A DNA stretch of 63,605 nucleotides, counting the filler, from Stramenopiles sp. TOSAG23-6 (lineage: Eukaryota): the NCBI GenBank assembly GCA_900128565.1. It is 11 parts of 11 records of this genome, joined end to end, with 100 filler letters (N's around TTAATTAATTAA, not from the genome) between each part and the next. Parts side by side here need not be neighbours in the genome. Positions count along the whole stretch, not along the records: positions 37,678 to 45,088 come from LT636567.1; 10 more parts are not named here. One strand, given 5' to 3'. The translations under genes and the position numbers were made by a program. Every line of letters starts with the position of its first letter. Position 1 is the first letter of the stretch. Below the pieces are notes generated by a model, which was not told the origin of the DNA, did not search any database, and worked only from the letters and a program-made list of their open reading frames with translations. This document shows, in pieces, positions 13,770-51,005 of the stretch.

Positions 13770-14923
13770 TTACAAAAAAAGTCCAATAATTAGACATATT
13801 ACAATCAATGAAGCGGACATAAAGACTTTCATTGAATGATGACGAATTTCTATCACAATTTGATCCGTTTCTTTATCCCATAACGTAGACATTTTCATAC
13901 GTAATAAACGACTTTTTTTTGAGTATATGTATCGTATCTCATCATTTTCGCGTTTTGTGTTTTTTTGTTTTGTTTTTTTATCATGTTTTTCATTGCGTGT
14001 TTGTTTTTTTTTGTATCTTGTAAAAACAACGAGAGGTTTCAATGATTCATTATGATTTGTAACTCTCTGAAAGATTTCAGATATATTTTTATCCTGAACG
14101 TATTGCCATTGTTTTATAATGGATTGAAAATATTTTTTAATATATGAAATATTTTTAATTTCGTTTTCAAACTGTTCATCAGAATGTTTGATTTCGTGTT
14201 CAAACGGTCTATCATGATTCATTTGTTGAAAACGTTCAAAATGTTTCGATTCTTGTTTCGATTCTTGTTTCGCTTCTTGACGACTATTTTTAGTACTAAA
14301 TATAAATGCATCTCGTTCTTCATCATTTTTAAATTTCAAAAAAGTATATGTATTTTGGAAAAATATTTAAAAAAATTTTGAAAATTTGTTAGGTACAAAA
14401 TTTTTTTACCAAAAAAAAAAAAAAAAAAAAATTTTTTTTACCGAAAAAAAAAAAAAAACATACATTGATGATCTTTCTTATATTTCTTAATTTTTTTTGC
14501 AAGACAAAAAAAAGCTGCCTTGAGTGTAATCCAACATGCAGTCATCTTCATTGCTTTTAATTTTTCAAAATGACCACCAGATTGTATAACATCCATCAAA
14601 TCATATTTAGATAGACAAATTATTGTTGAATATGTAAGACACGTGGCATTATATAGTCTATTATATGTATTGTGAAAAATATATTTTTTTTTTTTTTTTT
14701 TTAATTTTTTTTTTTGGAATTAAAATTGTTTTTGTTAGGTACAAAATTAACTACGAAAAAATATTTTACTAAAAATAAAAAACATACATGAATCTAAAAC
14801 AATATCTTGACCTAAATACGATCCATTGCGCAACACAGAGCTTCTGTACCCCACCAAACCTTTTTTTATGATATACATATTCTCATTTTTTTCACCATAT
14901 TTTATAAGCTCTTCTAGAGGAGG
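13770..14923 (-). CDS. Cyclic-nucleotide-binding domain protein (ion-channel-like C-terminus), 5'-partial; exons 14923-14788, 14664-14464, 14347-13770
   Basis: Spliced translation PPLEELIKYGEKNENMYIIKKGLV...GSYLGQDIVLDSYNRLYNATCLTYSTIICLSKYDL fits the cNMP-binding pattern; mostly absent from the ORF track. Confidence 0.75.
14348..14463 (-). other. GT-AT intron, motif family
   Basis: CAAT|GTATGT...AAAATACAT|AT; phase 1 restores frame. Confidence 0.8.
14665..14787 (-). other. GT-AT intron, motif family
   Basis: TCAT|GTATGT...CAATACAT|AT; lies inside the cNMP domain. Confidence 0.8.
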
Positions 14924-15211: not shown

Positions 15212-16344
15212 GGGTCCTGCATTTCCTAAATGATTTTGTCTCGATGCAGCAGATAATTCACAATCTGGTGTCTTTCCATTTTTAGTTTCGGTAAATGCAG
15301 TCCAAGTACCTTGGCAAGTTTCCTGTGTAATACCTGCGTCATTACCACCGTTGACACATCGATACATGTATTATGAAAAATATTTTTCAAAAATTTGATT
15401 TTTTTGTTAGATACGAAATTTCCTACGAAATAAAAATTGATTAGAATTAAAAAAAAAAACATACTTTGTTTTTACGTTTCCACTTTCAGACTGATAATAA
15501 TCACACCAATCTGTGTTTGATGTTAGAATAGCGACATCTCTCCATGGTGTCTGTAACCAATATGGGTAATAATCACGTTCTTCGGGGCATTCAAATCCAC
15601 TTCGATTTCCATTCGGATTTTGTCTCGTGAATCTCGCGTCATTTCCGTTAAGATCTTGGTCAGCGACGTAAAGCCCTTTATTTCTTTCAGTATTTTGACA
15701 GGTTTGATACCATGCCAAATTTTCATTCATACCATACTCTGTATCAGTCGCTGTATTTGCACTAATTGTATTTGTGCCATCGTTGTTGTTTCTTTGGAAT
15801 TGTGCCTCTTGATACAGAGGCGCGTTATTATTTCCCTGATTATTTACGTTTTGCAAATTCCCAGATGGATAGCCGTCCCGCAATCCTGGCATTGTATCTT
15901 CACAAGCGTACTGAATTACAAAGTTGCAGTTTGTGGATGGGTTATCTCCGCATGCATGCTGGTTCGTCCACTCCAAGTTCAGAAGAGAACCTTCGTAATA
16001 CTCTGCAGGGTCTGGGGCATTCTGAAGTTCACGATTTCCGCGCCAAGGATATCCTCCTTTAGCCTGTTTAGTAAAGATGATAAAAAATTGCAAGATGTTA
16101 AGTACGTTGGCGTGAAATATTCAATGTATACGTGAGACCATGTGATATATCGTAAAAACATAGTGAAATATGTAGAAATTTGAAGTACATTATTCTGGGA
16201 ATCGAATAGACGGTTGTCATTATTTCGGTTATTGTTTCGTTCACGATTGCGGTTATTTGATCCAGGCGGATTGTGCATATAAACATCTGCTTGACACTTT
16301 ACAACAAGCAAAACGCATACGTAAAATTGTAGAGTAGTCGTCAT
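15212..16344 (-). CDS. Secreted DD3-3-like protein, 3'-partial; exons 16344-16189, 16063-15465, 15365-15212
   Basis: Signal peptide, ADVYMHNPPGSNNR, RLFDSQNN-AKGGY, ECPEERDYYPYW motifs. Confidence 0.75.
15366..15464 (-). other. GT-AT intron, motif family (GTATCTAAC variant)
   Basis: AA|GTATGT...AATACAT|G; KTK-YRCVN. Confidence 0.8.
16064..16188 (-). other. Canonical GT-AG intron without the family motif
   Basis: AAT|GTACTT...TTACTAAACAG|GCT; restores QNN-AKGGY. Confidence 0.85.
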
Positions 16345-26100: not shown

Positions 26101-28653
26101 ACTTTTTAAGTTGCCGAGGCATTAACCATCGTCCCGTCTCATACATGTTCAACAGAGTTTCCATATCCCATCCTTTTGGTATATGTTTTCTCCATAAAGG
26201 TCCATGTGTGATATAATCCAGAACAAGAAGTTGCTCAGCTGTTTTTGGTAGTCCATCGAGAACAAAACCCAAAGGAAATTCTGGAACTTTCCCTGATAGA
26301 TCTTCACATTTCTTTTCACTTTTGGTTGAAATATCGTTGGCTATAGTAATAGCGAGCATGATTTTTTGAGCAGCAGCTTTTGCAATTAATATATTAGCAT
26401 AGATTGAATTATTTTGTTCTGTTATGGGATTCTCTTGTGAAGGATCTTGTGCCAACTCGTAAATTTTATGCAATAACATAGAATACTCTTCTTGAGGAGA
26501 TGGAACTGGAATAGACGGGGGTGTCTCTTCAATTAACCAAAGACCTCGATCAAATGGTTTTAGGCTTTCCCATGCAGATCTTTTTTTATGCCATTCATTT
26601 GCTTGTGTTTCGGTCGTCTTGCAAATTTCATCCCACTTAGTTTGCCAGGTGGAATATGTCGATTCATTAGCCTGAGCTTCTTTAACAATATCTTCTGGTG
26701 TTATTATAGCTAATCTGTGTTTAAGCGCAAGTGTATTTGCAAGTGTTGTTTTTCCACTGAGAGGAGGACCTACGAGTGAAATAACACATGGAGATCTTGG
26801 TGTCTGGAGCATTTTGTTTGTAAGAGGCCAACTGCAGCGCAATGCCCCTTCAAGTTCTCGAAAGACTTTACTTACATTTGGTAGTTCCGAGTTTTCACGA
26901 TCCGTGGTGCTTTCTTTTAGAGCCCATTTTCCATGACAATCAAGTAATTCTTGGACGTCTACATCATCAGAAGCATTTGCAACCATGTCTGTTGTACCTT
27001 TTTCGAGTAAAGGTGCTCCAAGATCATCCAACTGTAATGGTCGATCAGCAACAAAATCGGCTTTATATTCACGCCAGAAGGAAGGTGGCATTTTCTCTCG
27101 ATTATTATTTTCTCGATAATCAACCACCTTGAGTGCGAGATCAGTTAATGTACCCACAATAGCTGTACAAATATCATTATGTTGCTCGTGTCTCTGTTTA
27201 AGTCTTAAACGGTCAATTTCCGCCACTCGCTCAAAATTAGCTATTCGACGTGGTTCATCATCCACTCGCTTCTTCTCATATAATATAGAATCTTTTCCCA
27301 TTTGTATTTGAAATTCATCAAGTCTATTATTTCGACATTCTTCAGCGTGCTGCTTTGCTCTTTCTATAGATTTTGCTTTGATTCGACTATACGCCCAACG
27401 TTGTTGTGATTCCTCGCGTTCTGCTTTCGCTTCACGTGCAATACGAAGCAAGCGATCATGTATTTTGGAAAAATATTTCAAAAAAAATATAGTTAGGTAC
27501 AAAATTCCGTACGAAAAAAAAATCGAATTTGAAAAAAAGTAAAACATACACTACTCATTCGTTTTTCTTCCGCCAGTTTCTGTTCAACGAGTTGCTCCGC
27601 TTGTACACGTCTCTGTCGCGTCTGTTTCTCTCTTCGAGACACTTCATCAATTTGTCGTGATTGATGCAAAGCTTCTATATATTTTGAAGAGTGTTTTGCA
27701 AATTTCGCAGTTGATGATTTTGTCATTGACTCTAAACGTTTCATATGTTCTAGGGGAGTTCCTTGATTCGTTTTTGCAAGAGTATTCAAATCTTTGATCC
27801 CCTCGGTTGAATTACCTCTAAATCCAAGTCGTTTTAATTGTTTCTCGAAATTATCAACACCCATTTTGAGTTCTTGTTCACAGTGATGGCGTTTAATTAT
27901 GTCTTTACGTCGAGATTTTTCAACCATACTAAGTTCAAAACGAAGTTCTTTCCGTTCACGATTTCGTTTTATTATTTGAGTTTCTTTCCACCGTTTTTGG
28001 GCATTTTCTTCAAATTCTTTTTTTTCTTTACGATGAAGTAAATTACGTTTGATACGCTCTTTTTTCTTTTGTATAATAATTTCAGCCTCTTTTTCACGAA
28101 TTAACTTGTCCTCTGCGTCTATTTCATTCTGACGGTTTCGTTCAGTATCAAAAAATTGTTTGACATGAACTTTTTCTCTCATTTGTTTCTTATTCAAATG
28201 ATATGTAGTTGAGTAAAATCTTTCATCGTCTGTCATTGGAACAGTTTTTGGTTTCTCCTCCTCATTATTTTCAATCTTTTGTGACGACTTCAAATCTTTG
28301 ACGTTTTCGTTCACACCAATCATCCGTCTCAAAAGGCCATCCGATTGTATTTTGATTTCTGCTAATAACTTTGCAGCACAACCTCGTTTTTGAATCATTA
28401 TACTCTGTCGTTTCTTCTGAGATAGATTTATTGCAAGATTTTTAAAGCCAAGCTCACAAACTTTAAAATTATTTATCTTTGCCCCAGCTGTGTTTTTTCG
28501 AATGAGTTTACTCAAGGTAATAGTTTGACCTAACTTTTGAAGTAGTTCACCAAACAAATATCCATTTGCAAACTGCTCATCTATATCTGTTGCAACTATT
28601 CTAACAGAAAGCTGAATGTCTTTATTCAGCCATTTAGTCAATAGGTCAGACAT
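23186..28653 (-). CDS. SPEF2: SPEF2/CPC1-like flagellar central-pair protein, 2 exons
   Basis: N-terminal CH-like FANGYLFGELL...KINNF, coiled coil, adenylate-kinase-like GPPLSGKT...GFVLDGLP, C-terminal EF-hand-like region. Confidence 0.75.
27458..27549 (-). other. GT-AT intron, motif family
   Basis: AGT|GTATGTTTT...AAAATACAT|GAT; joins 386-aa and 1453-aa ORFs in phase 0. Confidence 0.85.
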
Positions 28654-30515: not shown

Positions 30516-31434
30516 TTAAGAATCAGATCGATTTCTTCTTCTTCTTCGGGAAGTATTTTTTCTCTGATTTGAATTTTGATTTGAATACTCCTTAGCTTCA
30601 TCATTTGAATGTATTCCAACACTTGGTTCATCATTTGAATGTTCATTTGAATGTACTCGACTTCCATTCTCATTGCGACTCACTTCAGGCACAGTATCAT
30701 TAAACTTTAATTCCTTTTGTTTTCCTATTTCATATTTTTTAATGGTTGGAGGGAAATTTGTCTTTCCTCTACCTGCAGCAATTTCTTCTTTCAAATACAA
30801 ATTTCTCTGTTGCTCCTCTTTTGCTAATTCAGAGGTCAATTCTTGGAATAATTCGTCAAAATTCCAAACAACATCTTCCTCCTGTATTTTGGAAAAATAT
30901 TTCAAAAAAAATCGTTAGGTATAAAATTTCGTAAAAAAAAAAACATAAATTTGAAATTAAAAAAATAAAACATACCTTTATCCTTGTCTGAGGAATGAGT
31001 ACACTGGTTAAGAGACTTATATCCACTCCTGAATTTCCTGTAGGGAGAGAATATCTAATATCTTGATCTAATTCTTTCATACTTTGAATGCGAAGTGAAC
31101 GTATTTTAGGTGCTTCCGCAATAGTTGTAAGCTCAGCTTCCTCTTCCTCCTCTTCTAACACGGGAATAACCAAAATGTTATCATCTGAATCCGACCCACC
31201 TTGCCCAAAATGTTTATCGTTGCTGCTTCGACCTCGTTGACGTGCACCTCGTTTATTCTTTTTTGAAGCACTCTTTGCTACTGCGAGTGGGGACCTTTTT
31301 GAATCTTCACCCCAACCTGATTTCCGAGGTTCATTATTATCTTTTGAGTCAAAAGGAGTATCTGAATTTGAGCTCGTGCTTGGTGATGGTGATCTTCTTC
31401 GACGTCTACGCCTTGGTTTCTCACGCTCAGGCAT
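30516..31434 (-). CDS. IFT43: Intraflagellar transport protein 43, 2 exons
   Basis: SGWG, IPVLEE, ELDQD, VDISLLT...EEDVVWNFDELFQELTSE. Confidence 0.85.
30882..30975 (-). other. Motif-family intron with canonical GT-AG ends
   Basis: AAG|GTATGTTTT...TACCTAAC...AAAATACAG|GAG. Confidence 0.9.
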
Positions 31435-31685: not shown

Positions 31686-32484
31686 ATGTTTTTACGTTCG
31701 CTGGTAATGATAGTAATGGCTATAAGCTACGGAAGTTTTCTTATTATTCCTCAGGCTTCTGGTTTGAGCTTGGATGCACAAGTTACACAACAGTTAGAGT
31801 GTGATATGTGTACCCGAGTCACACAAATAGTAGAAGGAACACTAATGAAAAACGCAACTGCAACAGAAACGTTTCAGAGAGTGGCTCAAGCTCTCTGCAT
31901 CCATCTTCCAGAAAATATTATTCCAATATGTCGCCAAGGTGCTCATCTTCTTACTACTCCTGTTTTTAAATGTATGGTTCAAGCTGTGGAATTTGGTTCA
32001 ATTTGTAACGACTCTTCCATCAAATTGTGCTTCGCGGAGCGACCATCGACGCAAGATCCTAGCCTTAAATGTTCATCGATGCAACCATCTGTACTTTCTT
32101 GTGCGGCATGCGAATTTGCAATATCCTCTTTACAACAGTATGTAGCAAGCGCCACGGATATTATAGCAAAGGGCGCAAGAACAGATGTACTTTTCAAAAT
32201 TGAATTAGTATTTTTTTTCGAACCAAAATTTGTACCTAACAAAAAATTTGAAAGTAAAATATTTTTTCACAATACATATCTGTGGCTTTCACTTTAAAGG
32301 AGAAATGGCCCAGAAAAAGTGTAAAGTACTCATGGACACTTATGGCGCTACAATGCTAAAAGTGGCCGCATCACGAATAAGTGCAAAGTCATTTTGTTGT
32401 GAACTTGGTCTATGTAATACGGGATTAGAAGATGATGGTAAGATTGTTACTAATAAGGGTTACACTAGCCCTATTCCAATGTAG
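31686..32484 (+). CDS. Secreted protein with two saposin-B-like domains, 2 exons
   Basis: Signal peptide; CDMC...C...C...IC..LC and CAAC...IC...C...FCCELGLC. Confidence 0.8.
32187..32277 (+). other. GT-AT intron, motif family
   Basis: GAT|GTACTTTT...TGTACCTAAC...CAATACAT|ATCTGT; restores saposin Cys spacing. Confidence 0.85.
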
Positions 32485-34742: not shown

Positions 34743-37512
34743 TCAAGTTTTGTATTTTATCTGCATTCCATCAATAATTTCATCCTCTGCTTCAGAATTC
34801 AACTTTCTAGCCTGCGCAACCAGTGAAGTGACTGCCGTACTACTCTTTTTTGACTTTTCTGGTATAAAAAAAGACTTTGGACGAGGTTTAATGGTTGGTG
34901 GTTGACGTTTTTTTGGACTTCGATTCTCAAATCCATTGGGTAGCATCATTCTTAACATGTCAATGTATATTGGGTCAAGTAAATCTTTACCTGTACGAAG
35001 TAGTACACCGAGTGATGGTCCGAGATGATCCCAACCAATATCACTAAGACCTGTACTTGTGAGAGCTTGGCAGTTATTCAGCAACGCAATGGCTACTTCT
35101 TCTAACTGTTCAGGATGCCATAAAGTTTTTGCATTTGCTTCAGCATCGACACGTTGGCAAATCTTCGCTACAAGACTTGCGATAAATTCATCTTTCATCT
35201 GCTCAGAACACGTTGGAATATATCGACCTAAATTTCGTAGTACATCAATGACAACTTTATGTGATGGGTCTTGTGTCAGTCGTAAAAGTTCCTCTTTTAG
35301 CTTTGGTTTCATAGGCTTATAAGGTTCATTCGAATCGTATGACATTGTCAAAACAATTACAGCCTTGACGCTGCTTTTACGGACTTCGGTATCTTTATCT
35401 CTACAAAGGATGTGTAATGATGGCATGACTTTTGTCTCTTGATCTTTATCGGAAACCACGGGTGCAACAACCGCAAGCAATAAAGTAACTTTTACACGTA
35501 CAGCTGTAGATGGATGTGCTGCAATATCACTTAATACAGATAATAATTGTTGTGCTGTAGCACTATCACTAGACAAATCCATAAACACCTTTTCTACTAC
35601 AGGGTATTGACGAGAACGCCAACCATTATTTTCTAAAGCAACACCCACAAGAGTATCCGCAATAAATCGTTTGATATAAACATGTGGTAACTCAACTAGA
35701 ACAGCACGTGTATACACTGGGAGAATTCTTTCTAATAAAAGATCTTTTTCGCGAATTTCAATTTCACCGCCCGATTGATTGTGAACTCGATTTGGTCCCA
35801 TCAAACTGGTATCACTGAGTACAGCTGCTTTACGTGCAGCCGTTGATGCAGCTTGCCACCATTCACAGCGCAATGTTTCATTAGGAATAGAATTTTCATT
35901 TCGGCCTAATATGGAAAGAAATGCGGCGGATGGTTTCCTCTTCTCTTGACCCTCCAACATTCCCATTGTTGCAAGAAATAAAGGACGTACAACGTTAAGT
36001 GTAAAAGATTCTCCAAAACTATGACAAAAACTACGAAACACTTTCACAAAACATAATTGATGTCTCTTAGAATCACCAGACTCAGATGTATTTTGTGAAA
36101 ACATATTTCAAAAAAAAATGATTAGGTACAAAATTTTCATAGTAAAAACAAAAGTGAGATGNATAATGAAAACGTATAGACAACATAAATACAATAACAA
36201 ATTAGGAAGCACAAGTTGGCAAATGCTACGAAATTCTGGCCATTCCAATGCATCCAAAGTTCCAATATTTTCAATATTCGATGCAATCATGTTTTTGGTG
36301 TCTAATCGGAATACAACATCAACTGCCGATATTTCACTATTATAGCCTAATTTCTTAGCTGCGCGAAATATCCAGCCTGGTGCATTATCTAAAGAAAATA
36401 TTTTCTTTTTAAGAATCGGAGCAGCGGTTGTCAATGCATATAATAAGTGGTCAAGCTTTAATGTTTTTTTTTTTAATTTATACGCAACTGTTGTGCTTAA
36501 AATATAGTCATCTTCCGATTTACTTTCAGTCAACAAATCTATGCAAGAAGACAAGTTCACTTCGGTCTTTGAATCCATTGTATTTCTAATTTGAGTCAGT
36601 AAAACTTCAACAATACCTTCATGATTAAAAATAGTACCATAAGAATAGAAAAATATTTCAAAAAAAAAAAACTAAAATTTGTTAGGTACAAAAATTTTTT
36701 ACCAAAAAAAAAAATTCAATTTTAAATTGAAAAACAAATAAAACATACATTCAATTTTAATTTATTTAGAAAATAAAACATACATTTACATTCTGATATT
36801 CTATCAGAAGAGGAAGAATATTTTCAATGGCTATCTGGGGTATTTCTTCTACATCTGAGAGAAGTGTCAGAAATAATTCACCAAGTATTTTAGTAAAATG
36901 CATTTTACAGTACTTTTGAATATTCTTATTACTGTCTAAAACTTCTAAGTCTATTTTGTGAACTAGTGTAGATTTGTGTAATACTGTTTTTAGTAATGAA
37001 CTTAGTGCTTCCAATGCAGCTTTTCGAACTTGTAATGATTTTTCAATCCTATGTGAGCACATAGTCACTAAACTTGGTACTAACTCACTAAATACAACAA
37101 TTGGATCACATGAAGGAATAATCGCAAGCGCAAGTGATGCAGCCTGAATTCTACGCTCTCGAAAGCGTTCCTTACATTGTTGGCTTATCGCGACGATAAT
37201 TTCCTCAGAGGTCCGTTTTCTACCAATTACTCCTGATAGATTTGATATTCTTGTACATAACTCATTGCGTTCATACTCATTCGGTCGTGGGATCAAGGAA
37301 ATTAAAGATTTGATTAAACCTAATGAAACTTTTTCTCCTTGAGGCATAAGAGCAATACAACGAACTAGAAGTGGGGCCAGTGAAGATCTTTCGCTGATGA
37401 CCATTCCTGATACTAGACTAGGCAATTGTTGAGATAAGAAAAGAATTAATTCTGTTTCTCTACTTTGTGTAAATTTCGTGTATTCTTCTGACGTATCTCT
37501 ACAATTCAGTTT
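34743..37512 (-). CDS. HEAT-repeat protein, RELCH/KIAA1468-like, 5'-partial, at least 3 exons
   Basis: LAPLLV...LISLIPRPNEYER...IGRKRTSEEII...ERR resembles RELCH from recall; downstream HEAT repeats. Confidence 0.65.
36088..36177 (-). other. Motif-family intron best read as AT-AC
   Basis: CT|ATACGTTTT...GTACCTAAT...AAAATAC|A; flanking ORFs share a frame, so the length must be 3n. Confidence 0.6.
36639..36783 (-). other. GT-AT intron, motif family, with a duplicated internal donor at 36748
   Basis: AAT|GTATGTTTT...TTCTTAT|GGT; phase 0 restores frame. Confidence 0.75.
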
Positions 37513-37677
37513 ACGTATTGTTAAAAAATATTTCAAAAAAAAATCGTTAGGTACGAAATTTCGTATGAAAAAAAAATNNNNNNNNNNNNNNNNNNNNNNN
37601 NNNNNNNNNNNNNNNNNNNNNTTAATTAATTAANNNNNNNNNNNNNNNNNNNNNNNNNNNNNNNNNNNNNNNNNNNN

Positions 37678-37856: not shown

Positions 37857-38023
37857 ATAGTAATGGTTATTGTAATTTCGACTTTTCTGAAATATTTTCG
37901 ACTTCCGACTTCGACTTGACTTCAACGGTCGACAGTTATTTGGCCGAATTTCATCTCAACACCGACACCGAACGCCGAACTGAACATCTACAATTCTGGT
38001 TACAATTAGCTTCATAGATTAGA

Positions 38024-39438
38024 ATGGTTCTTAGAGGTTCGGTAACGAAGCCTGATGTTGGTGTAAAGGAAGTTTTACGGAAGTCCAGTGATGCAATTAT
38101 CGAACGTAAGGCTAAGGAAGCTGCTTTTCATATAGAGTCGGAAGCGTTATGGACCCGCTTAGAAAAAACAGCGGAGAATCAACAGGAATTAACACAGGCG
38201 GAACTTTATTCCTTAATTCATCGCCTACATTCACGAATCCAGTTGTTGGAGGATGAAAGAATTGCCGCTGAAAAGTATGCGGAAGAACAATATGCCGATG
38301 TCACCCGTGTTTTCAAGCAGCTACTCTGCGGCGGTCTCGCCGGTTGTGTAGCTCGAAGTTGTGTAGCACCAATTGATAGAACGAAGATTCTTTTACAGAC
38401 TCAAGCATTGACATTTGCTAACGAGGGTAAAGTTAGTGGACCAAAGTATCGGGGAATATTCCATACATGGCGTGTTATAATCAAGGAGGAAGGATTCAAA
38501 AAGTTATGGCGTGGAAACGGAGTTAATTGCATACGTGTAGCTCCGTATGCCGCTACTCAATTTGCTTCCTATGACTTTTACAAATCTTTAATATCTAGTA
38601 ATGAAAATCTTACAATCCCCAAACGTTTATTATGTGGTGCATTAGCTGGTGCAACTGCTACAACAATAACACACCCTCTAGATGTTATTCGGCTTAGATT
38701 AGCAGTATGTTTTATTCTTTTTCAAATTCGAATTTTTTTTTCGTACGAAATTTTGTACCTAACGAATTTTTTTTTAAATATTTTTCCAAAAAACATGTTA
38801 CACCAAGTCTTGATGGTTTTCAGGATGCATTACGTCACGTAGTCAAGGAAAATGGATTTCGTTCCTTATACAAAGGTTATGTACCCACATTACTTTCATT
38901 GTCTCCATTTATAGCGATTAATTTCTCCGCGTTTGATATTTTCAAAAGGATTGCCTATCCTGAAGGTCCATCTGGAGGTTGGTCAGCCCATGTACGTTTT
39001 CAACATTCATTTTTTTTTCAATTTTTTTTAGTACGAAAATTTGTACCTAACGAATTTTTTTTCGTACAAAAATATATATTTTTTTCATTTTTTTTTTCAT
39101 ACGAAATTTTGTACCTAACGATTTTTGTACTACAAACATTTTTTTTCACAAAACATCCTTTTCTTACTTTAACTTTGGGTGGTTGTGCAGGTCTTGTTGC
39201 ACAAAGCTGTTGCTATCCACTAGATACTGTCCGACGACGAATGCAATTACCTGGTACGCATTATAAATCTGTGTGCGATGCTTTTGCTACTATACCAAAG
39301 AAAGAAGGGATAAGAGGTTTATACAAGGGTATGCTGCCAAATGCGGTAAAGATTGTACCTAATAATGGAATTCGTTTCTTGGCATATCAGTTTTTTAAAG
39401 ATATTTTTGGTGCAGAAAAGAAAAAATATGAAAAATAG
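38024..39438 (+). CDS. Mitochondrial carrier (SLC25) protein, 3 exons
   Basis: Three Px[DE]xx[KR] motifs: PIDRTK, PLDVIR, PLDTVR. Confidence 0.92.
38705..38796 (+). other. GT-AT intron, motif family
   Basis: GCA|GTATGTTTT...AAAAACAT|GTT; RLRLA-VTPSL. Confidence 0.85.
38992..39156 (+). other. GT-AT intron, 165 nt, in-frame and stop-free, with two copies of the motif
   Basis: CAT|GTACGTTTT...AAAACAT|CCT; removes a poly-Phe insert from carrier repeat 3. Confidence 0.8.
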
Positions 39439-40714: not shown

Positions 40715-41480
40715 TTATAACGAAATATCCGAATTCCAAGTAGTATCATTATGAATACATATCTTTGTCGTAGCATAATTTTCTATAGCTTCCTCCACAG
40801 TCCACTGGCGTTTCCCCAAGTGAGCACTGACATTATTATGCATGTATTGTGAAAAAAATGTCAAATTTGAAATTTATTAGATACCCCAAAAAAACCTTTT
40901 GACTTTCATATGGAGAAAAAATAAATAATTTCAAGATGAAAACGTACATTTTTACTATAAACGAGCGTAATCGTATACGCGAGGAACATGCTAAATCTAG
41001 ATCAATATCCTTCAAGTATTCCTTTAGATGGTATCCACAATCACCACATGGTAACATATATGGAAGACTTACAAAAAATGTTTTGCAGTGATCAATATGA
41101 GCCATGTCTGGCTTGTCACTAAAATTTGCAGCCATTGTATGAAGTAAATTCCATGCAACAGGACCCCAAGCTATTGGCTCAGCACTAACAACAGAAGTAC
41201 ATGTCTTCGCCCCTCGCTGAAGGGCACTACCTATTTCAGAACTACCCGTAGCCGACAGTGCAATATCATTTGACGCAGGTAAACATACCCTGGCCGAGTT
41301 GTCTTTTCTATTTGCGTTTTTTGAGCTACGCAGTGCGAGTGTGTCATATCCTGGACTAGACCAAAGCCACGCAATTCTTATAAATAATATAAGAGTACAC
41401 ACAAGAGCACCATACTTTAATTTTACATACTTTTGGGTCATTCGTTTTGAATTATCCATCGTTGCTTGAGAATATATCAT
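40715..41480 (-). CDS. Erv1/Alr-family sulfhydryl oxidase with N-terminal TM anchor, 2 exons
   Basis: WGPVAWNLLH, LPCGDC, and spliced KMHNNVS. Confidence 0.85.
40842..40947 (-). other. GT-AT intron (GTATCTAAT variant)
   Basis: AT|GTACGTTTT...CAATACAT|G; restores the HNxV motif. Confidence 0.85.
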
Positions 41481-41812: not shown

Positions 41813-43256
41813 ATGCCTCGTGGAGTGAAAGCGGTATCCGCCACCAAAAGTAAACAAAAGGCAACAAAGAAGACTCGGAAAAAAACTGCGGCTGATGTAA
41901 TAACAAAAAAAAAAGCACGAAGAAAAAAAACAAACAAACCAAAGATTTCTTCTTCCCTTTCCCACAAAACGCTGGTAGACGATTTGAAGCACGTTCGAGA
42001 TTTTGCTATTACGCTTAGACATAAAGCAAAGTTTTATTTACCACCCACACTCCCAGAACTTGGTATCTTTGACGCAAAAGAAGTTATTCAAAAATCTCCA
42101 TCAAAAATGCTCGATGAGATTGATTGCCTCATATCAAGTTTACTCTCAACGGTACTTGGTGGAGGAAGTTTACATTTACGTATACCAAGTCGAAGTGCAT
42201 CCAACCAAGTATACGTCAAAGAATTGCATCGGATTGTTTTAAAAAGTAAATTTCTCGTTCGTAATTTTGACTCCGTCGCAGGTTGTCGAAAAATGGCCAT
42301 TATGATACGTGTTCTAGAACTGATGTATCAAGTACTCACTAAAGGTATTCACATTACAAAGCGTGATCTTTTCTATACTGATGTAAAACTATTCAAAAAG
42401 CAAGAAGAATCTGATGGTGTTCTTGATGACATTGCTTGTGTATTGGGCTCTACTAGAACGTATGTTTTATTTTTTTTTGAATTTCGAATTTATTTTTTTT
42501 CGTACGAAATTTTGTACCTAACAATTTTTTTTTTTTTTTTTTTGAAATATTTTTTCACAATACATGTGTCTCGGAGTCGTTGCATCCGAGAAGGGCGTTG
42601 TTGTTGGTAGAATTAGTTTCAAAGAAGCAGGCGATGTCATTGACTGTACTAAAATGGGCGTATCAGGGAAAGCTGTACCTGCATATATAGATCGACTCAC
42701 TGATTTAAAATCAGATGCAGAGTTTGTACTTTTGATTGAGAAAGATGCTGCGTATATGCGGTTAGCTGAGGATCGTTTTTATAATAAATACCCATGTATT
42801 CTTATTACCGCAAAAGGACAACCGGATGTCGCTACTCGTCTATTTCTAAGAAAAATACACGATGAATTACATTTACCAATATTAGGCTTATTTGATGCAG
42901 ATCCTTATGGTCTGAAAATTCTCTCTGTGTATGGTGCTGGTTCTCGAAGTATGAGTTATGATAGTGCTAGTCTTGCTACACCAGGGATAAAGTGGTTAGG
43001 TGTTAGACCGTCAGACTTGAATAAATATAACATTCCAGAGCAATGCAGACTTCCAATGACAGATGCAGATATTAAAGCTGGAAAAGATATGTTAGAAGAT
43101 CCATTAATATCATCCAATCCGGCTTGGCATAAAGAATTAAAACTAATGGTCAAATCAAAGATGAAGGCAGAAATTCAGGCTTTATCAGCGTTTGGCTTTC
43201 AATATTTGACTGAAGAATATTTACCACGTAAAATTCGAGAGGGTGATTGGATATGA
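41813..43256 (+). CDS. TOP6A: DNA topoisomerase VI subunit A (SPO11-3 type), 2 exons
   Basis: [37 protein letters not shown]. Confidence 0.92.
42460..42565 (+). other. GT-AT intron, motif family
   Basis: AC|GTATGTTTT...CAATACAT|G; gives [15 protein letters not shown], colinear with the family pattern GCTRSSLxVVASEKG. Confidence 0.9.
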
Positions 43257-43336: not shown

Positions 43337-45029
43337 CTATGAACTACTGCTTTCACTATTGGGCTCCTCACTTGTATGACTTGAATTATTACTCTCCTCA
43401 TCATCAGCAGCTACCATTTGTTTCTTAGATGCAAACTTGTCAACATTTGCAACATCTTTACCAGCTGCACAATCTTTGATCCATTGAATTTGTTCCAACT
43501 CCCATTGCTCCTCTTTCAGTAATACTTTCTCTGCCATTCTAACACGTTTTTGGTGCTCTTCCGGTATATATGGCCACCATGCAGGGACAGCATTACACTT
43601 TTGTCTCCACTCGCGCAGAAGTGCAAGCTCCTTTATCCTCTCTTTCATTTCTGTTGGGTGGGGTTTTTCTATTTTTTCGCCGTATACTATCATAAATATT
43701 GTTCCACGCCTTGGTGTTGTTGGGCGTTCCTCTGGTAACGTTGGCATACTCAAAGGATTTCCTTTCCAGTTGTACTTTTTCGTAAACCAGTCTCTCAACT
43801 CAGGCGATTTCGACATAAAATCAAGGGAGTTGCGAAGCAAAATCAGCCAATTTCCATTACCCCACATAAATGGAGTTTTTTCGGCTTCTTCGCAAATTTT
43901 AGGAGCCACAAAGCGACATTGTTCTTCATCCTGATATCCAGCACGTCGCCATGCAACCTTTACAAGTTGGTTACGCCATGTCACAAGTGTTTCAATAGCA
44001 TCAAGTGTATATGTATTTTAGAAAAATATTTCAAATTTGTTTTTGTTAGGTACAAAATTTCGTACGAAAAACAAATTCATACAAAAAAAAAATAAAACAT
44101 CCATCCTCGAAGTGTACAAAGATATTTCGTTGTTTTCTTAAATGCTCTTTGTTTTTCAGTGTTCACAATTGCTGTGGTGTATATAGTTGAAGCATTTTTT
44201 ATCATTTCTTGTAATTCTTGTAGTGCCTCTTCGTGTTTCATTATTTTTTCTAAAAGCGATGATTCTAATTCTTTGATTTGATTCGACTCTTTTTGTCGAA
44301 TATTTAATTCTTCTTTATCAAAATCTTTTGTATTTGTCTCATTGGTTGGTTCGTATGTAGAATTAATGCAAGCTTCTGCAATTTTCATTCCAGCTTTCGA
44401 CCATTTTTTATCGTTTATTTTTGATATTTTTGATATTTTTTTTTTATTACTTTTATGAATCTTTCTACGAATATCATGTTTACCACTTAATTGTTGATGT
44501 TTTTTTATTCTATTAGTTTTTTTTTGTTTTGAATGGTCATTTGAATGCTTCTTGTTTGCATCCCACACTGTTTCATTACCATTTACGTTGATATCTACCC
44601 AAGGCTCTCTTGGGGGAGGCTGTATATACTTTTTTACTCTCTTTTTTTCTTTCAATGATGAAATTGGTTTTGACCAACGTTTTTCAAGAATATTTAATTT
44701 GTTGATTTCGTGAACAAAATGTCTCACAAATTCTTTTGGTGTTCGCATTTCACACTCCTCGAATTTATTCTCAAACTTCAATCCAAGAGATCTTCCATCA
44801 ACATAGATTATGAAAAAATATTTCAAAAAAAACTCGTTAGGTACAAAATTTTGTACGAAAAAAAAATAAATTCGAAATTAAAATGAAAACGTACATTCAC
44901 CCTAATAACTTTTGCAGGGTGCCAAATTTCTCCAACAATAGCTGGTGTAAACATTGATGGGGATCTAAATCTACTTTGCACGCGTTGGCCAACTTTGTAT
45001 CGCTTAGGTCTTCTTTTAATTGCCCTTGC
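43337..45029 (-). CDS. Hypothetical protein with a Tudor-like segment, 5'-partial, at least 3 exons
   Basis: Three ORFs joined in frame across family introns; YKVGQRVQSRF...WHPAKVIRVN-VDG. Confidence 0.6.
44011..44102 (-). other. Motif-family intron with apparent GG-AT ends
   Basis: GGAT|GGATGTTTT...AAAATACAT|AT; RG-Y-TLDAIE. Confidence 0.65.
44803..44894 (-). other. GT-AT intron, motif family
   Basis: AAT|GTACGTTTT...AATCTAT|GTT. Confidence 0.8.
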
Positions 45030-46520: not shown

Positions 46521-49500
46521 ATGTATCTACGTATATGTAGTATTGTGCTATTATGTACNCTCATCATCGATACACTTGCGATGGAAAAGGTACCAACGNC
46601 AACGACAAAAAAAGCAATTGACGTCGCAACACTAAACCAGAAGTTAAAAACAATCGTTGAGCAAGTAGACGTAGCCCTTCCCAAATATCTTGCACAATCC
46701 GAACATTCAAGAAATATAATTCAACAGAGCGCNCGAGATCTTTGGCCATTATCAATGCCAGAGGTGCATATTTATGGCTCTGCAGCGACTGGATTATTCA
46801 TTCCTGAAGGTTCTGACGTTGATCTTCTCATTGACTTTCCTGGTATGAACGACCCAAAAATTTTTGAAAAACGTGCACTACTAACCATACTACTCAAACA
46901 TTTACAGTCAACGAACATGCTGCAAAACTTAAACGACTCTGGTTACTTTTCAATTTACGCAAAGCACCCTGTATTAACTGTTACCCTCAAGAACAACGTA
47001 GAGGTTGATATAGCCATTCGGTGTNTACAAAGCCAAGCCCTGGAGACTGTTGACTACGTCCAAACTGGATTACGCGAACTTTCTTCACACCATGCAAGAG
47101 ATATACTTGTACTCCTAAAATTATATCTTAGGAAAGAAAATGTTTTTAATCCAAAGAGTGGAACCATGGGAAGTTACGTGTTATTTCTACTGTTTAAATT
47201 TTTCGTTGCAAACACGCATCTTGAGCCAACAACACTATTTGAAACATTAGACCTTTTTCTTAATGAATTTGGTACAGAAAGTAAATTAATTGCTTCCGAC
47301 ATTGNGATGCATTTTTCCCCAGATGTATCATATCAAAAGTTCAGCAAACAACAAAATTGGTCTATTTTTATACAAGATCCTTTACTCCCAGCAGAAGAAA
47401 ATGCAGCAGAGATAATGTATAACATACGTCAAGTACAATATCAGTTGACTCGTCTTCAAGATTTGATATTGACGACAAATGTGGAAGATGTTTTTCTGGT
47501 AACTCCCCAAAAGGATATACCAGAAGTCAAGGGTACAGTACACGATGGACGGGGCGAAGCTGCAAAAGAAGAACAACAGGCACCTAATACATCGAAAGCT
47601 AAAGCTACAAGAGAAGAACAACAGGCACCTGATACATCTATAGCTAAAGCTACAAGTGAAGAACAACAGGCACCTGATACATCGATAGCTAAAGCTACAA
47701 GAGAAGAACAACAGGTACCTGATACATCGAAAGCTAAATCTACAAGTGAAGAACAGCAACAATCTAAAGCTACAAGAGGAAAACAAAACGGACCTGCTAA
47801 ATCTAATGTTACATCTAAAAGAAGAAAACAACGGGGAAAACATACATCGAAAGCTGAATCTAACGCTGAAGCTCCAACAAAAATACAACAAGCATCTAAA
47901 GCTCCAAGAACAGCAAAACAAGCAACGGGTGGTCGACGTAGAGCTGGAAGAAGAAAACCATCAAATACGGAAGCTGCTAGAAAACAGCAACAAAAACAAA
48001 ATGCTTTACGAAAACAGCAAGAAAAAAAAGAAAAAGAAGAAAAAGAAGCTTTACGACAACAGCAAGAAAAAGAAAATGCTTTACAAAAAGAACAAGAATT
48101 TGAGGACGCTTTACGAAAACAGGACGCTTTACGAAAACAGCAAGAAAAAGAAAATGCTTTACTAAAAGAACAAGAACNTAANGACGCTTTAAGAAAACAG
48201 CAAGAAGAAACAGAAGTTGCAAGGAAACAACTTGAAAATCAAGCAGCAGCAAGGAAAGCAAGGATACTGCAAGAACAAAACCGAAAAAAAGAAGAGAGAC
48301 AAAAACTAAAAGCAGAAGCTAAAAAAATCGAAAAAGAAGCTAAAAAAANGGAACAAGAAGAATCGAATATGCTGAAAGTATATGGTGNATATAAAATTCA
48401 TCACAATGTACTCAAAACCGTTCTGCAACAGTATGAAACTTCAGCGCAAANAAATGCTTCCCCAGATTCTCCAAAAACTCTACTACTTGCCATACAAAAA
48501 GATCGAGACAGAGTTGTTACTACTATTGACACATTTGAAACGTTTGTTACTAAACATCAATTGATTCAAAAAGAAGCTAAGCCGTTTCTTATCGAAATGA
48601 AAAAGAAATTTAAATCTATTCGTCAACAATCCAAAGTGTATATTAAACTACTTGAATCGAAGATTGCTATAGAAGAATCACAGATTTCTATACAAAAAAC
48701 TGAACAAGACATNCTTGAATCNCAGATTGCTATACAAAAANCAATGATTTCTATACAAAACGCTGAAAAAGANGTANAAGNCNAACAATTCGTAAAAGAC
48801 AAACAAGAAAAAGATGAAAATGATACAGTATTGTATGGACCACAAATGAAACCTGAAGGAATAAGTACAAAAAAACAAACGCCTCAACCAGAACCAGTAG
48901 AATCCAACACAGCCACAGTTGTAGCGACTAGACATCAAGATTTTTTAGGTACAAAATTTCGTACGAAACAAAATCAAGATGAATCTTCTCCTCCTCCTTA
49001 TTCTGATGTTGCTTTGGGTATAAGCTTGGACGATTATGTACGTTTATTTACATTTTTTTTAACAAATTTTTTTTTCTCAAAAAAAAAAAAAGAAAAATAT
49101 TTTTGTACGACATGTTGTACCTAACAATATATATATATTTATATATAGTTCACTATAAAGACCATTNAGAAACATACGGATATAAACAAATTGTTCTTTG
49201 TCCATGTAGTATACAACATATTAACTAAAGAAAGTTTATTAGATATATATGGATTGACACGTTTCGTTTCAGAGAGTATGGCCAAAGACATGAAAAGTGT
49301 GATTTCTCTTTCAAGACGTTTAATTCCATATTTAATCGAAAACGATTATTTATGTCTAATTGTGTCGCCTAAGGGCCTTTTTTTTAAATTGGGAGGTAAA
49401 GTCTTTCGAGGTGTTCCCCCTGCCTTTCAAATATTGCTCCTAACTGAAGATCCATCCTCTTTTACAAATGTATGTTTTTTTTTTTTTACACCCTAACCCT

Positions 49501-50528
49501 TTTTCAATTTGTTTTTCATTTTTTTTTCATAGTAAATTTTGTACCTAACAAAATATACAAAAAATACAAAACAATTAAAAATATTTCATCAAAATACATG
49601 TCATGAATCAAGCANCAAACGTCATTTTTAACCCAGAAGAAAGTTCACACTCAAATAATCCACTTCGAAATCTTCTCATTCATACTTTACGAAGACAAGA
49701 AATAATTGCATTTAGTGATGTTCATGAAAATGCAAAAAACGCAAAAAACGCAAAAAACGCAAAAAACGCAAAAAACGCAAAATTTCGTGTAGATAAAACA
49801 TCTCAAAAATTTCAAAAATCTGTTGTTTATANTAATCGCGATNATGACAAATTAATGGCTTTTGCTATGAGTTTATTTAATCGTTNGAAGACAATTAGAT
49901 TTGAGTTGCATACAAACGATCCTGCTANACATGTAAGTTAACCCTAACCCTAAACCCTAACCCTAAAGTTTTTCAACATGAATTTAAAAAAAAATGTTGA
50001 AAATATAGAGAAGATTTTTTTGTTTTTTTGTTTTTGTAGCAAATTTTGTACCTAACGAATTCTACATTTGGTATACTTTTTCATACCACATGAAGTTCGC
50101 ATGATATTAAGGGAATCTTATGATAAGACAATTGTACGTTTACATCATTTATTTAACTTTTACAGTTGTCTTTTACACAATTGAATTGATTTAACTATTT
50201 TTTTTTNACTTTTTNATCTATANTTTTTTTTTTACATTTCATATGAAATTTTGTACCTAACAAAAAAACACATAATTTGACATATTTTCATCTGTATAGA
50301 ATTTCAAATCGGTTTTTGAGCTTCCAAAAGACAATGCTACAGTGGACGCTTTAAAGGAGTACGTAACAAAAAATCAAAAAAAAAAATATTTTTCTAAAAT
50401 TTTAAATTTTTTTTTCATACGAAATTTTGTACCTAACAAAAAATCAAAAAAAAAATATTTTTCTACAATACATGTTAGGGTATTTCATTCCTCACTTAAA
50501 GAAACAAGATGCTTGGCAAATGCACCAT
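46521..50528 (+). CDS. Pol-beta-type nucleotidyltransferase (PAP/TUTase-like) with repeats, coiled coil and a multi-exon tail
   Basis: IYGS.ATGL..EGSDVDL, VDI, GTMGSY, IQDP...N; introns 49038-49148 (AG), 49470-49599 (AT), 49933-50091 (AT), 50134-50299 (AG), 50359-50473 (AT); final exon unresolved. Confidence 0.7.
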
Positions 50529-51005
50529 GTACATTTTCATTATGAATTTCAATTATGAATTTCAATTGTTAGGTTTGTTTTTTGAAAAATTTTAAAAACA
50601 ATTTCATACGAAATTTTGTACCTAACAAAACATCTTTAAAACTTTGAAATATTTTCCTATAGTCCATGATTTGATATTTGGATTGCGATTTTCAGAAAGT
50701 GTGTTCGGTAGACATATCTATGAGATGATTGGGTATTGGTCAGCGGGGTTGTAATTTTATCTTTTTTTTAATTGAAATAAAATTTGTAATACAACAAATA
50801 ATAATAATAATATTTGGTGACTTTTTTGTCCTAGTTAGGGTTAGGGCTATATTTTAAAAAAAAGACAGCCGTTGAATCTTCCGGAGGATCTTCTTCGAGC
50901 TCTACTACTATAGCTATACGTAGTATCTGCACTGTTCATTAAACTATAGTTTACAAATAGATAAGAGAATATTTTTGAGAGATTCAATACCTTGTACAAT
51001 CAACA

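What the first reader, a model, noticed from the sequence alone, without database searches (positions are those of the whole stretch)
38738..38763. Long, palindromic, non-U2/non-U12 branch-region motif shared by most introns
Seen: TTTCGTACGAAATTTTGTACCTAAC, or a close variant, recurs about 30-50 nt before the acceptor in roughly 30 introns. TTTCGTACGAAA is a perfect 12-bp palindrome and GTACGAAATTTTGTAC can form a hairpin with one G-U pair. The branch-like part varies as GTAYCTAAY (GTACCTAAC, GTATCTAAC near 15410, GTATCTAAT near 40880). Established: the U2 consensus is TACTAAC and the U12 consensus is TCCTTAAC, so this matches neither. Inference: C/T variation at these two positions is what pairing to G in a partner RNA would allow, predicting a variant U2-like snRNA with about GUAGGUAC. 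Alternatively the motif is a relic of a mobile element.
Basis: partly seen in the sequence, partly recalled or inferred. Interest (0 to 1): 0.86.

Follow-up and report, generated by a model that had tools for sequence, protein, structure and literature searches.

The report
Repeated introns ending in AT
The flagged motif is the best-kept core of a roughly 100-base intron that has been copied into about thirty genes of a marine protist, and these introns, unusually, end in AT instead of the near-universal AG.

Summary
The 25-mer occurs 25 times with up to 3 mismatches against 0 expected, and GTAYCTAAY 34 times against 1.55. It is not a free-standing branch signal. It is the most conserved block of a whole-intron repeat, an introner-like family with median length 106 nt, lying in sense orientation in unrelated genes.

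Removing G-N-A-Y-G-T...N-A-T joins the flanking frames in 16 of 17 clear cases. GT-AT is an allowed reading in 17 of 19. Two junctions are bridged by RNA contigs, and one is fixed by gapless homology. Two introns outside the family also read GT-AT.

The palindrome and hairpin show no covariation. The GTACCTAAC half is almost never lost and lies a median 36 nt before the intron end. It is therefore the likely branch site, but this is inferred.

A variant U2 could not be tested. No genome is held and the window has no snRNA gene.

Verdict: new variant of a known kind, introners with a non-AG acceptor.

The parts
38705..38796 (+). Flagged intron (92 nt) in a mitochondrial-carrier gene; a full copy of the repeat, read GT...AT
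   Evidence: Frames join when it is removed. Allowed end pairs are GT-AT, TA-TG and AT-GT. Pieces of RNA contigs from other copies start at 38705 and stop at 38796-38798 (table 8).
38705..38715 (+). 5' block GTATGTTTTAT (donor, yeast-like GTATGT)
   Evidence: Majority fraction 0.8-0.9 across 18 aligned introns. First six bases are GTATGT in 11 and GTACGT in 4 of 21.
38739..38750 (+). Palindromic half TTTCGTACGAAA; drifting, with no structural support
   Evidence: Perfect in 7 of 32 copies. 0 compensatory changes. Majority fraction only 0.5-0.8 in the CGTACG part.
38755..38763 (+). GTACCTAAC, putative branch site (inferred)
   Evidence: Exact in 27 of 32 copies, with T18 A19 C21 T22 A23 A24 invariant. 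Present in every intron found by end signatures alone. Lies a median 36 nt from the intron end.
38764..38796 (+). T-run plus conserved 3' block ...AAATATTTTTCCAAAAAACAT ending in AT
   Evidence: Majority fraction 0.8-0.9. Last four bases are ACAT in 15 of 21.
38992..39156 (+). Second carrier-gene intron (165 nt) with the core duplicated in tandem (cores at 39043 and 39111); RNA-supported
   Evidence: RNA contig X3 record 19 joins 38988 to 39154. Allowed ends are CA-AA, AT-AC, TG-CA and GT-AT, never GT-AG.
40842..40947 (-). Family intron with the variant GTATCTAAT; RNA-supported
   Evidence: RNA contig X4 record 27 joins 40840 to 40947. Allowed ends are TA-TG, GT-AT, TG-CA and AT-AC.
42460..42565 (+). 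Family intron in the Top6A/Spo11-type gene; junction fixed by homology
   Evidence: The GT-AT product aligns without gaps to 5 homologues. Of 6 nearby AG alternatives, 4 leave the frame and the 2 in-frame ones delete 15 and 17 conserved residues.
2598..2698 (-). Family intron, donor GAATGT, 7-nt direct repeat across its boundaries
9530..9648 (-). Family intron, GT...AT
9777..9940 (-). Family intron with telomere-like insert, core GTACCTAAT
14348..14463 (-). Family intron, GT...AT
14665..14787 (-). Family intron, GT...AT (flanking frames less clear)
15366..15464 (-). Family intron, core GTATCTAAC
27458..27549 (-). Family intron between ORFs of 370 and 1423 codons, GT...AT
30882..30975 (-). Family intron that ends ACAG at the aligned place where the others have ACAT (the one GT-AG copy)
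32187..32277 (+). Family intron, donor GTACTT, ends ACAT
36639..36748 (-). Family intron, ends TTAT (frames less clear)
44011..44102 (-). Family intron with donor GGATGT (GG-AT, or AT-AC by shift)
44803..44894 (-). Family intron, GTACGT...CTAT
49470..49599 (+). Family intron with telomere-like insert, GT...AT
50359..50473 (+). Family intron, GTACGT...ACAT (short flanking ORFs)
50529..50667 (+). Family intron whose 3' end is uncertain: CCAT, or the TATAG five bases upstream
5653..5746 (+). Intron without the repeat in an FAH-family gene; reads GT...AT
   Evidence: Sequence. Exon ends checked against solved homologues.
5764..5862 (+). Second intron without the repeat in the FAH-family gene; GTAATT...ACAT, with the adjacent AG out of frame
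48944..48968 (-). Antisense copy of the core (24 of 25 bases) inside an open coding frame on the + strand

Best explanation
The motif is the best-conserved internal block of an intron-sized repeat, an introner-like family of about 92-165 nt. The repeat has been copied into about thirty places in unrelated genes of an AT-rich marine protist, and the 21 curated copies all lie in sense orientation. The repeated unit is the intron itself. It begins GTATGT or GTACGT and carries, in order, a T-rich stretch, the block TTTCGTACGAAATTTTGTACCTAAC, a T-run, and a conserved 3' block ending ...AATACAT. It is removed from RNA exactly between the G of GTAYGT and the T of ...YAT, so these are GT-AT introns, not GT-AG introns (shown). 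The most likely mechanism is ordinary two-step spliceosomal removal (inferred). The donor would be read as a yeast-like GTATGT. The 3' half of the motif, (GTAC)CTAAC, would serve as the branch site, about 35 nt upstream of the 3' end. The acceptor would be chosen not as the first AT but through the longer conserved ...AATACAT context, with T in the place of the usual G. The palindromic 5' half of the motif is passenger sequence of the element and is decaying. Two introns outside the family also end in AT, so tolerance of a Y-A-T acceptor appears to belong to the host's splicing machinery, not only to the element.
For: Repeat family: 25 matches against 0 expected. A whole-element profile finds 38 hits in 63.6 kb. 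Alignments show similarity from the first to the last intron base and none in the exons. RNA contig pieces from other loci start at 38705 and stop at 38796-38798 (table 8). Bins holding the element have summed contig depths of about 180-7,900, against 0-6 in exon-only bins (table 2).

Boundaries: 16 of 17 clear cases are in frame when G-N-A-Y-G-T...N-A-T is removed, where chance gives about 1 in 3. GT-AT is allowed in 17 of 19; the next best pair, TA-TG, fits 10, and AT-AC fits 8. Two RNA contigs bridge introns with no GT-AG option. The Top6A junction is gapless against 5 homologues. One copy has ACAG exactly where the others have ACAT.

Sense orientation: all 21 curated copies.

Branch-site role: T18 A19 C21 T22 A23 A24 are invariant in 32 copies, while the CGTACG half varies. 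Of 13 candidate introns found from end signatures alone, 10 carry GTAYCTAAY outright, 2 were cut short by the regex and carry it further on, and 1 has it obscured by N bases. The distance to the 3' end is 29-69 nt, median 36. AG is depleted between the motif and the 3' end, 4 observed against 12 expected.

Host property: the FAH-gene introns 5653-5746 and 5764-5862 lack the repeat yet read GT-AT.
Against: No branch point was mapped, so the branch role is inferred from conservation and position only. Copies were first collected through the motif; one search corrects for this only in part, with n = 13. Young repeats can look conserved without selection: median pairwise identity is 0.69 and the maximum is 0.93. 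Direct RNA support covers 2 introns, both from one study, and as contigs rather than reads. About 98 AT dinucleotides lie unused between motif and 3' end in the 21 introns, so what selects the acceptor is unexplained. A second branch-like stretch (TTYYAHAAT) lies 8-12 nt from the 3' end. Donor position +2 is G or A in 2 of 21 copies, which is odd for a spliceosomal donor. Target-site duplications and terminal inverted repeats are not clear-cut, so how the element moves is unknown. No snRNA or splicing-factor gene could be examined. The FAH mini-exon model supplies 6 residues where three solved homologues leave 4-5, so it fits only to within one or two residues.
Confidence: 0.6

Rival explanations
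1. One reading: the long motif pairs with a co-evolved, variant U2-like snRNA with about GUAGGUAC, so the organism has a changed branch-recognition sequence. This could be true in addition to the introner reading.
For: The conserved block extends upstream of CTAAC to TTTTGTAC, with G17, T18, A19 and C20 at 90% or more. TAC-C-TAAC has one more base than the yeast consensus (established knowledge). The only changes seen within introns at the two Y positions are transitions.
Against: It was not testable. No genome is held, and the window has no Rfam match at the gathering score or at E<=1. The Y variation rests on 1 and 2 events among 32 copies. A canonical GUAGUA can pair with the CUAAC core, as in most eukaryotes (established knowledge). 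Extended conservation is equally expected for a young repeat.
Confidence: 0.2
2. The motif is only a relic of the mobile element and has no splicing role. The real branch site lies elsewhere, for example in the 3'-proximal TTYYAHAAT 8-12 nt before the end.
For: The whole intron is repeated, so conservation alone does not prove function. The 3' block is about as conserved as the motif, at 0.8-0.9. The two introns outside the family have no CTAAC. An antisense core survives inside a coding frame.
Against: The adjacent CGTACG half of the same element drifts (0.5-0.8) while GTACCTAAC does not. Every intron recognisable by its ends keeps the motif. CTAAC followed by a T-run at 29-69 nt is the normal layout of a branch site (plus established knowledge).
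Confidence: 0.2
3. Structure-defined excision as in euglenid nonconventional introns or Amoebophrya introners: pairing of the two intron ends brings the splice sites together, and the terminal dinucleotides do not matter.
For: The ends are non-canonical, and short direct repeats span the boundaries: AT before the intron in 12 of 21 (P about 7e-8) and GT after it in 7 of 21 (P about 7e-5). The termini are weakly complementary, with 6.65 of 10 positions able to pair. Passages of PMC7789003 describe such a layout.
Against: End pairing equals the shuffled-partner control (6.65 vs 6.57) and is as good with the register slid by 2. Predicted folds are weak, with mean z -0.87 and any end-to-end pairs in only 6 of 20. 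The ends are uniform (GT-AT allowed in 17 of 19), whereas the Amoebophrya passages report no preferred dinucleotides. The donor is a standard GTATGT.
Confidence: 0.07
4. U12-type (minor spliceosome) introns, which have long conserved donor and branch motifs and tolerate non-AG ends.
For: There is a long conserved 5' block (GTATGTTTT) and a long branch-like block. That minor introns tolerate several 3' dinucleotides is recalled, not checked here.
Against: None of the 10 RTATCCTT sites in the window lies at a family intron start. The motif is 29-69 nt from the 3' end, while U12-type branch sites lie about 10-20 nt away (established knowledge). [quoted passage not shown]
Confidence: 0.05
5. The elements are cut out of the DNA, like ciliate internal eliminated sequences, and the 'spliced' RNA merely reflects a processed somatic genome.
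For: RNA contigs cannot tell RNA-level from DNA-level removal. Short direct repeats lie at the boundaries.
Against: All 21 curated copies are in sense orientation, which DNA excision would not require. The donor and branch-like signals are those of spliceosomal introns. The element is abundant in RNA-library contigs. The gene content points to a stramenopile-like protist, not a ciliate.
Confidence: 0.03

Closest known systems
Introner elements (Micromonas pusilla, Aureococcus, and the 548 families of Gozashti et al. 2022; PMC9860276 passages, review PMC11282704 passages)
   Same: Many similar intron-sized copies in unrelated genes. The repeated unit is co-extensive with the intron. Copies lie in sense orientation, with short direct repeats at the boundaries. 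The host is aquatic.
   Different: The passages I saw report GT/GC/GA donors with canonical acceptors. Here the acceptor is Y-A-T. No clear fixed-length target-site duplication or strong terminal inverted repeat is present.
Amoebophrya non-canonical introns and introners (Farhat et al. 2021, PMC7789003; passages)
   Same: A marine protist with mostly non-GT-AG introns, repeated introns, and direct repeats of a few bases overlapping the boundaries.
   Different: There, no terminal dinucleotide is preferred, 8-20 nt inverted repeats form hairpins, and GC values above 50% are quoted for nuclear genes. Here the ends are uniformly GT-AT, predicted structure is weak, a strong branch-like motif is present, and GC is about 25-39%.
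Fritillaria borealis non-canonical introns (PMC13326754 abstract; review passage)
   Same: [quoted passage not shown] U2AF paralogues there read non-canonical 3' ends, which gives a precedent for a changed acceptor reader.
   Different: It is an animal, its splice sites are highly diverse at both ends, and its introns derive from MITEs. Here only the last base differs from the canon, and it does so uniformly.
Yeast-type introns (GTATGT ... TACTAAC ... YAG; established knowledge)
   Same: GTATGT donor, a long near-invariant branch box containing CTAAC, and a branch-to-acceptor distance of tens of bases.
   Different: There is an extra C (TAC-C-TAAC), the acceptor is YAT, and the introns are copies of one another.
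U12-type introns
   Same: Long conserved donor and branch motifs, and non-AG termini occur.
   Different: The donor is not RTATCCTT, the branch box is 29-69 nt rather than about 10-20 nt from the end, and a T-run is present.

Membership tests
Introner / introner-like element | Many similar copies in unrelated genes of one genome | tested here: met
   25 matches against 0 expected; 38 profile hits; host ORFs are unrelated.
Introner / introner-like element | The repeated unit coincides with an intron that is removed from RNA | tested here: met
   Similarity stops at the intron ends (table 8, 23). 16 of 17 are in frame after removal. 2 junctions are bridged by RNA contigs.
Introner / introner-like element | Target-site duplication of fixed length | tested here: inconclusive
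   Direct repeats of 0-7 nt span the boundaries. AT lies before the intron in 12 of 21 and GT after it in 7 of 21, both enriched, but no single register fits all copies.
Introner / introner-like element | Terminal inverted repeats | tested here: inconclusive
   The ends are weakly complementary (6.65 of 10 positions), the same as the shuffled control.
Introner / introner-like element | Evidence of recent mobility (presence/absence between strains or orthologues) | not testable with these tools
   No related genome is held. Metagenome and viral scans gave no true copies.
U2-type spliceosomal intron | GT (GY) donor with a U1/U6-compatible extension | tested here: met
   First six bases are GTATGT in 11, GTACGT in 4 and other GTA in 3 of 21. 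Exceptions are GAATGT 1, GGATGT 1, and one uncertain 5' end.
U2-type spliceosomal intron | Branch box containing YTRAY upstream of a pyrimidine tract | tested here: met
   CTAAY is present in all curated copies, followed by a T-run. The branch itself was not mapped.
U2-type spliceosomal intron | AG at the 3' end | tested here: not met
   The last two bases are AT in 20 of 21 and AG in 1. The RNA-supported and homology-fixed junctions exclude AG.
U2-type spliceosomal intron | A U2 snRNA complementary to the branch box | not testable with these tools
   No genome is held, and the window has no snRNA.
U12-type intron | Donor RTATCCTT | tested here: not met
   The window has 10 sites, none at a family intron start.
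U12-type intron | Branch box about 10-20 nt from the 3' end | tested here: not met
   29-69 nt, median 36.
Amoebophrya-type introner / euglenid nonconventional intron | Stable pairing of the intron ends (inverted repeats of 8-20 nt) | tested here: not met
   Mean z is -0.87, and any end-to-end pairs appear in 6 of 20. There is no excess over shuffled partners.
   0 pairs show changes on both sides. The G5-C20 pair is broken in 11 of 25 distinct rows. The palindrome likewise has 0.

The most novel reading that the evidence does not exclude
In this marine protist the major spliceosome uses Y-A-T as its standard acceptor in place of Y-A-G across the genome. The change would have spread with, or been enabled by, an introner that carries its own strong donor, branch box and 3' context. 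This predicts altered AG-reading components (U2AF small subunit or its replacement, and second-step 3' splice-site recognition), and perhaps a U2 adapted to TAC-C-TAAC.
Probability: 0.4. Interest if true: 0.9.

Novelty: new variant of a known kind. Interest (0 to 1): 0.72.

Why it matters
The AG at the 3' end of introns is among the most conserved signals in eukaryotic gene expression. The known exceptions I found (Fritillaria, Amoebophrya, euglenids) have diverse, irregular ends. A genome where a single different dinucleotide (AT) is used regularly, with otherwise textbook donor and branch-like signals, would be a clean natural experiment on how the acceptor is read. It would also show how an intron-generating element and the splicing machinery adapt to each other. 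In practice, gene finders that assume GT-AG will mis-annotate such a genome, and introner surveys built on annotated introns may then miss the family (my inference).

Tried and rejected
- **Whole genome:** not held, so no assembly-wide snRNA search or intron census was possible.
- **Rfam on the window:** 0 matches at the gathering score and 0 at E<=1.
- **Independent copies in public collections:** the 20-mer gave 0 loci in metagenome contigs. The 16-mer gave 118 metagenome loci and 28 viral loci, each with a single match. The whole-element profile found no true copy among the 146 loci held (best E 3.6e-05, covering only the seed), so these are chance hits.
- **Sequencing runs:** shares were small, 0.06-0.16. 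They are used only for the two bridged junctions and the piece ends, not for habitat, expression level or absence.
- **First read-laying run:** I repeated it on the N-free stretch 37678-45088.
- **Script:** listing every open junction was too permissive to discriminate.
- **Script:** it picked the internal GAATTTTTTT as donor, so its '14 of 17' is not used.
- **Junction scan:** dominated by antisense ORFs and not used for counts. The number of introns outside the family that I could judge is therefore only 2.
- **AT-AC reading:** allowed in only 8 of 19 and excluded for Top6A.
- **Protein atlas search of the 202-aa ORF:** best score 0.86, a lead only.
- **Literature:** searches for the motif string, for GT-AT introns, for MAST-4 with splice-site terms, for introner with stramenopile, and for non-canonical introns in picoeukaryotes found no description of a GT-AT intron family. 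PMC5778133 has only two 'intron' passages, both in its methods.
- **Supplements:** closed. Supplementary tables of PMC9860276 (its list of introner families) and of PMC7789003 could bear on whether this family is already listed.
Full report
**1.
- The 25-mer TTTCGTACGAAATTTTGTACCTAAC lies at 38739-38763.
- With up to three mismatches it has 25 matches on both strands, against none in 100 shuffles.
- One of the 34 (39355) is ordinary coding sequence of the carrier gene.

**2. It is a whole-intron repeat, not an isolated signal.**
- Printing each copy with its flanks and aligning the profile hits (38 hits; alignments) shows similarity across the whole unit. It runs from a 5' block (GTATGTTTTAT or GTACGTTTTCA), through a T-rich stretch, the flagged motif and a T-run, to a 3' block ...AAATATTTTTCCAAAATACAT. 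The flanking exons are unrelated.
- In seawater metatranscriptome contigs laid on 37678-45088, pieces from other loci begin at 38705 and stop at 38796-38798, the first and last bases of the flagged intron (table 8).
- Bins that hold the element reach summed depths of about 180-7,900, against 0-6 in exon-only bins (table 2). The element therefore has very many copies in the source organism. These are contig depths summed over copies, and an RNA library can contain DNA.
- Curated introns are 91-165 nt long (median 106) and have a median pairwise identity of 0.69, maximum 0.93.

**3. The introns do not end in AG.**
- In many copies coding sequence resumes right after ...ACAT, with no AG nearby.
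- Frame test: for 21 curated copies I asked whether removing exactly G-N-A-Y-G-T...N-A-T joins the dominant reading frames on the two sides. It does in 16 of the 17 cases with clear flanking frames, where chance gives about one in three. The exception (36129-) has an uncertain 5' end.
- Equivalent placements: allowing for shifts that give the same mRNA, GT-AT is possible in 17 of 19. The other two are GT-AG (30882-30975, which has ACAG at the aligned place where the rest have ACAT) and GG-AT (44011-44102). The next best universal reading, TA-TG, fits only 10, and AT-AC fits 8.
- RNA contigs: X3 record 19 joins 38988 to 39154, and X4 record 27 joins 40840 to 40947. The placements these allow include GT-AT and AT-AC but never GT-AG. 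Both runs belong to one study.
- Homology: in the Top6A/Spo11-type gene, whose homologues are 69-76% identical, the GT-AT product gives [15 protein letters not shown] against GCTRSSLNVVASEKG, with no gap against five homologues. Of six nearby AG alternatives, four leave the frame and the two in-frame ones delete 15 and 17 conserved residues.

**4. Non-AG acceptors are not confined to the repeat.**
- The FAH-family gene at 5058-6192 has two introns with no similarity to the element.
- Its exon 1 and exon 3 align to solved homologues and leave 4-5 residues between them in three of those homologues (8sky, 8gsr, 6iym).
- A 17-nt mini-exon at 5747-5763 would supply 6 residues there, so the fit is to within one or two residues. 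With it, both introns (5653-5746 and 5764-5862) read GT...AT.
- The AG next to the second acceptor is out of frame.
- This is only two introns. My broader junction scan was too noisy to use.

**5. The palindrome and hairpin have no support.**
- In the 32-copy core alignment A1, the hairpin GTACGA/TTGTAC has 73.3% of cells paired against 74.1% in shuffles. No pair shows a change on both sides, and the G5-C20 pair is broken in 11 of 25 distinct rows.
- The TTTC/GAAA palindrome gives 73.0% against 73.9%, again with no compensatory change.
- The perfect 12-base palindrome is present in 7 of 32 copies.
- Whole introns fold weakly, with mean z -0.87. The two ends pair at all in the predicted fold in only 6 of 20.
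- The termini are weakly complementary, 6.65 of 10 positions, but partners shuffled between introns give 6.57.
- So this is not a structure-defined intron of the Amoebophrya or euglenid kind (passages).

**6. The 3' half of the motif looks constrained.**
- Along 18 aligned introns, the GTACCTAAC columns have majority fractions of 0.8-0.9 or more, while the adjacent CGTACG columns have 0.5-0.8.
- In A1, T15, T18, A19, C21, T22, A23 and A24 are invariant, and GTACCTAAC is exact in 27 of 32 copies.
- Because the copies had been gathered through the motif, I searched again with donor and 3'-end signatures only. Of 13 candidates, 10 carry GTAYCTAAY. Two were cut short by the regex, and their full introns carry the motif at 9814 and 50253. 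One (8260) has it obscured by N bases.
- The CTAAY ends 29-69 nt (median 36) before the intron end and is followed by a T-run.
- CTAAC is the core of the yeast TACTAAC box (established knowledge), so the motif is that box with one extra C.
- I therefore take it as the probable branch site. This is an inference, since no lariat was mapped.

**7. What selects the acceptor is unknown.**
- About 98 AT dinucleotides lie between motif and 3' end in the 21 introns and are not used. AG is three-fold depleted there, 4 observed against 12 expected.
- This suggests that AG is still competent as an acceptor and is avoided, and that the used AT is marked by the longer conserved ...AATACAT context.
- One copy (50529-50667) may use a TATAG five bases upstream of its CCAT.

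**8. How the element spreads is open.**
- The upstream exon ends in AT in 12 of 21 copies (background 0.095, P about 7e-8). The downstream exon starts with GT in 7 of 21 (background 0.053, P about 7e-5).
- Direct repeats of 0-7 nt therefore span the boundaries.
- No single target-site-duplication register fits all copies, so either a transposon with a short duplication or a target preference remains possible.
- All 21 curated copies are in sense orientation. This fits removal at the RNA level and argues against DNA-level excision.

**9. The variant-U2 idea could not be tested.**
- No genome is held, and the window has no RNA-family match even at E<=1.
- U12-type membership fails. None of the 10 RTATCCTT sites lies at a family intron start, and the branch-like box is too far from the 3' end.

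**10. Organism.**
- GC is about 25-39%.
- The best named Top6A relatives are stramenopiles: oomycetes, Triparma, Cafeteria and Ectocarpus.
- The only runs holding parts of the stretch are seawater metatranscriptomes, with small shares.
- I did not try to name the source.

**11. Literature.**
- The review of transposon-derived introns (PMC11282704, passages) and the large introner survey (PMC9860276, passages) describe introners with canonical acceptors and rare GC/GA donors.
- Amoebophrya (PMC7789003, passages) and Fritillaria (PMC13326754, abstract and outline) are the known cases of mostly non-canonical introns, both with diverse ends.
- Searches for GT-AT introns and related terms found no description of a regular GT-AT family.
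- Supplements were closed, so a listing there cannot be excluded.

**12. Verdict.**
- The finding is real, and more interesting than stated, but for a different reason.
- The motif is the conserved core, and the likely branch box, of an introner-like family whose members end in AT rather than AG. So do at least two unrelated introns.
- The hairpin/palindrome idea is rejected. The variant-U2 idea remains open.

Noticed in passing
window 39546-40646: A 1.1-kb segment is flanked by 40-nt direct repeats that duplicate the 3' end of the carrier gene. It holds an intronless 202-aa ORF on the minus strand (39703-40311) with no convincing relatives (best atlas score 0.86). One RNA contig (X1 record 2) joins 39545 to 40647 across it, so the cause could be an insertion polymorphism, a UTR intron or an assembly artefact.
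   Followed up: partly
window 8009, 8965, 9896, 12134, 32562, 45646, 49491, 49942, 49955, 50836: Telomere-like CCCTAACCCTA repeats occur 10 times against 0.26 expected. Several lie inside family introns just after the donor, for example in 9777-9940 and 49470-49599.
   Followed up: partly
window 7467-7566, 15010-15109, 22544-22643, 30065-30164, 37578-37677, 45089-45188 and others: Assembly gaps consist of 44 N, then TTAATTAATTAA, then 44 N. Several of them (7467-7566, 15010-15109, 22544-22643, 30065-30164, 37578-37677, 45089-45188) sit inside copies of the intron repeat, just upstream of the core. This suggests the contigs broke at the repeat and were joined artificially.
   Followed up: partly
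window 52628-57680 versus 56910-60125: An inverted duplication: identical ORFs of 457, 259 and (partly) 507/256 residues occur on opposite strands. This may be a real palindromic duplication or an assembly artefact.
   Followed up: no
window 48944-48968 (-): An antisense copy of the core (24 of 25 bases) lies inside the open 879-codon frame on the + strand, where it reads through as coding sequence. It may be an exonised fragment of the element.
   Followed up: partly
window 38992-39156: One intron carries the core twice in tandem (39027-39051 and 39095-39119) and is still removed as one unit in the RNA contig.
   Followed up: yes
window 40685-40709 (+): A partial copy of the core with no donor lies in a region where convergent transcripts overlap. 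An RNA contig runs straight through it, so it is not spliced there.
   Followed up: partly
window, 10 sites (e.g. 7089, 10699, 16045, 41005): RTATCCTT (the U12-type donor consensus) occurs 10 times against 4.37 expected, a count reached by 2 of 100 shuffles. None is at a family intron. I did not examine whether any marks a true minor intron.
   Followed up: no
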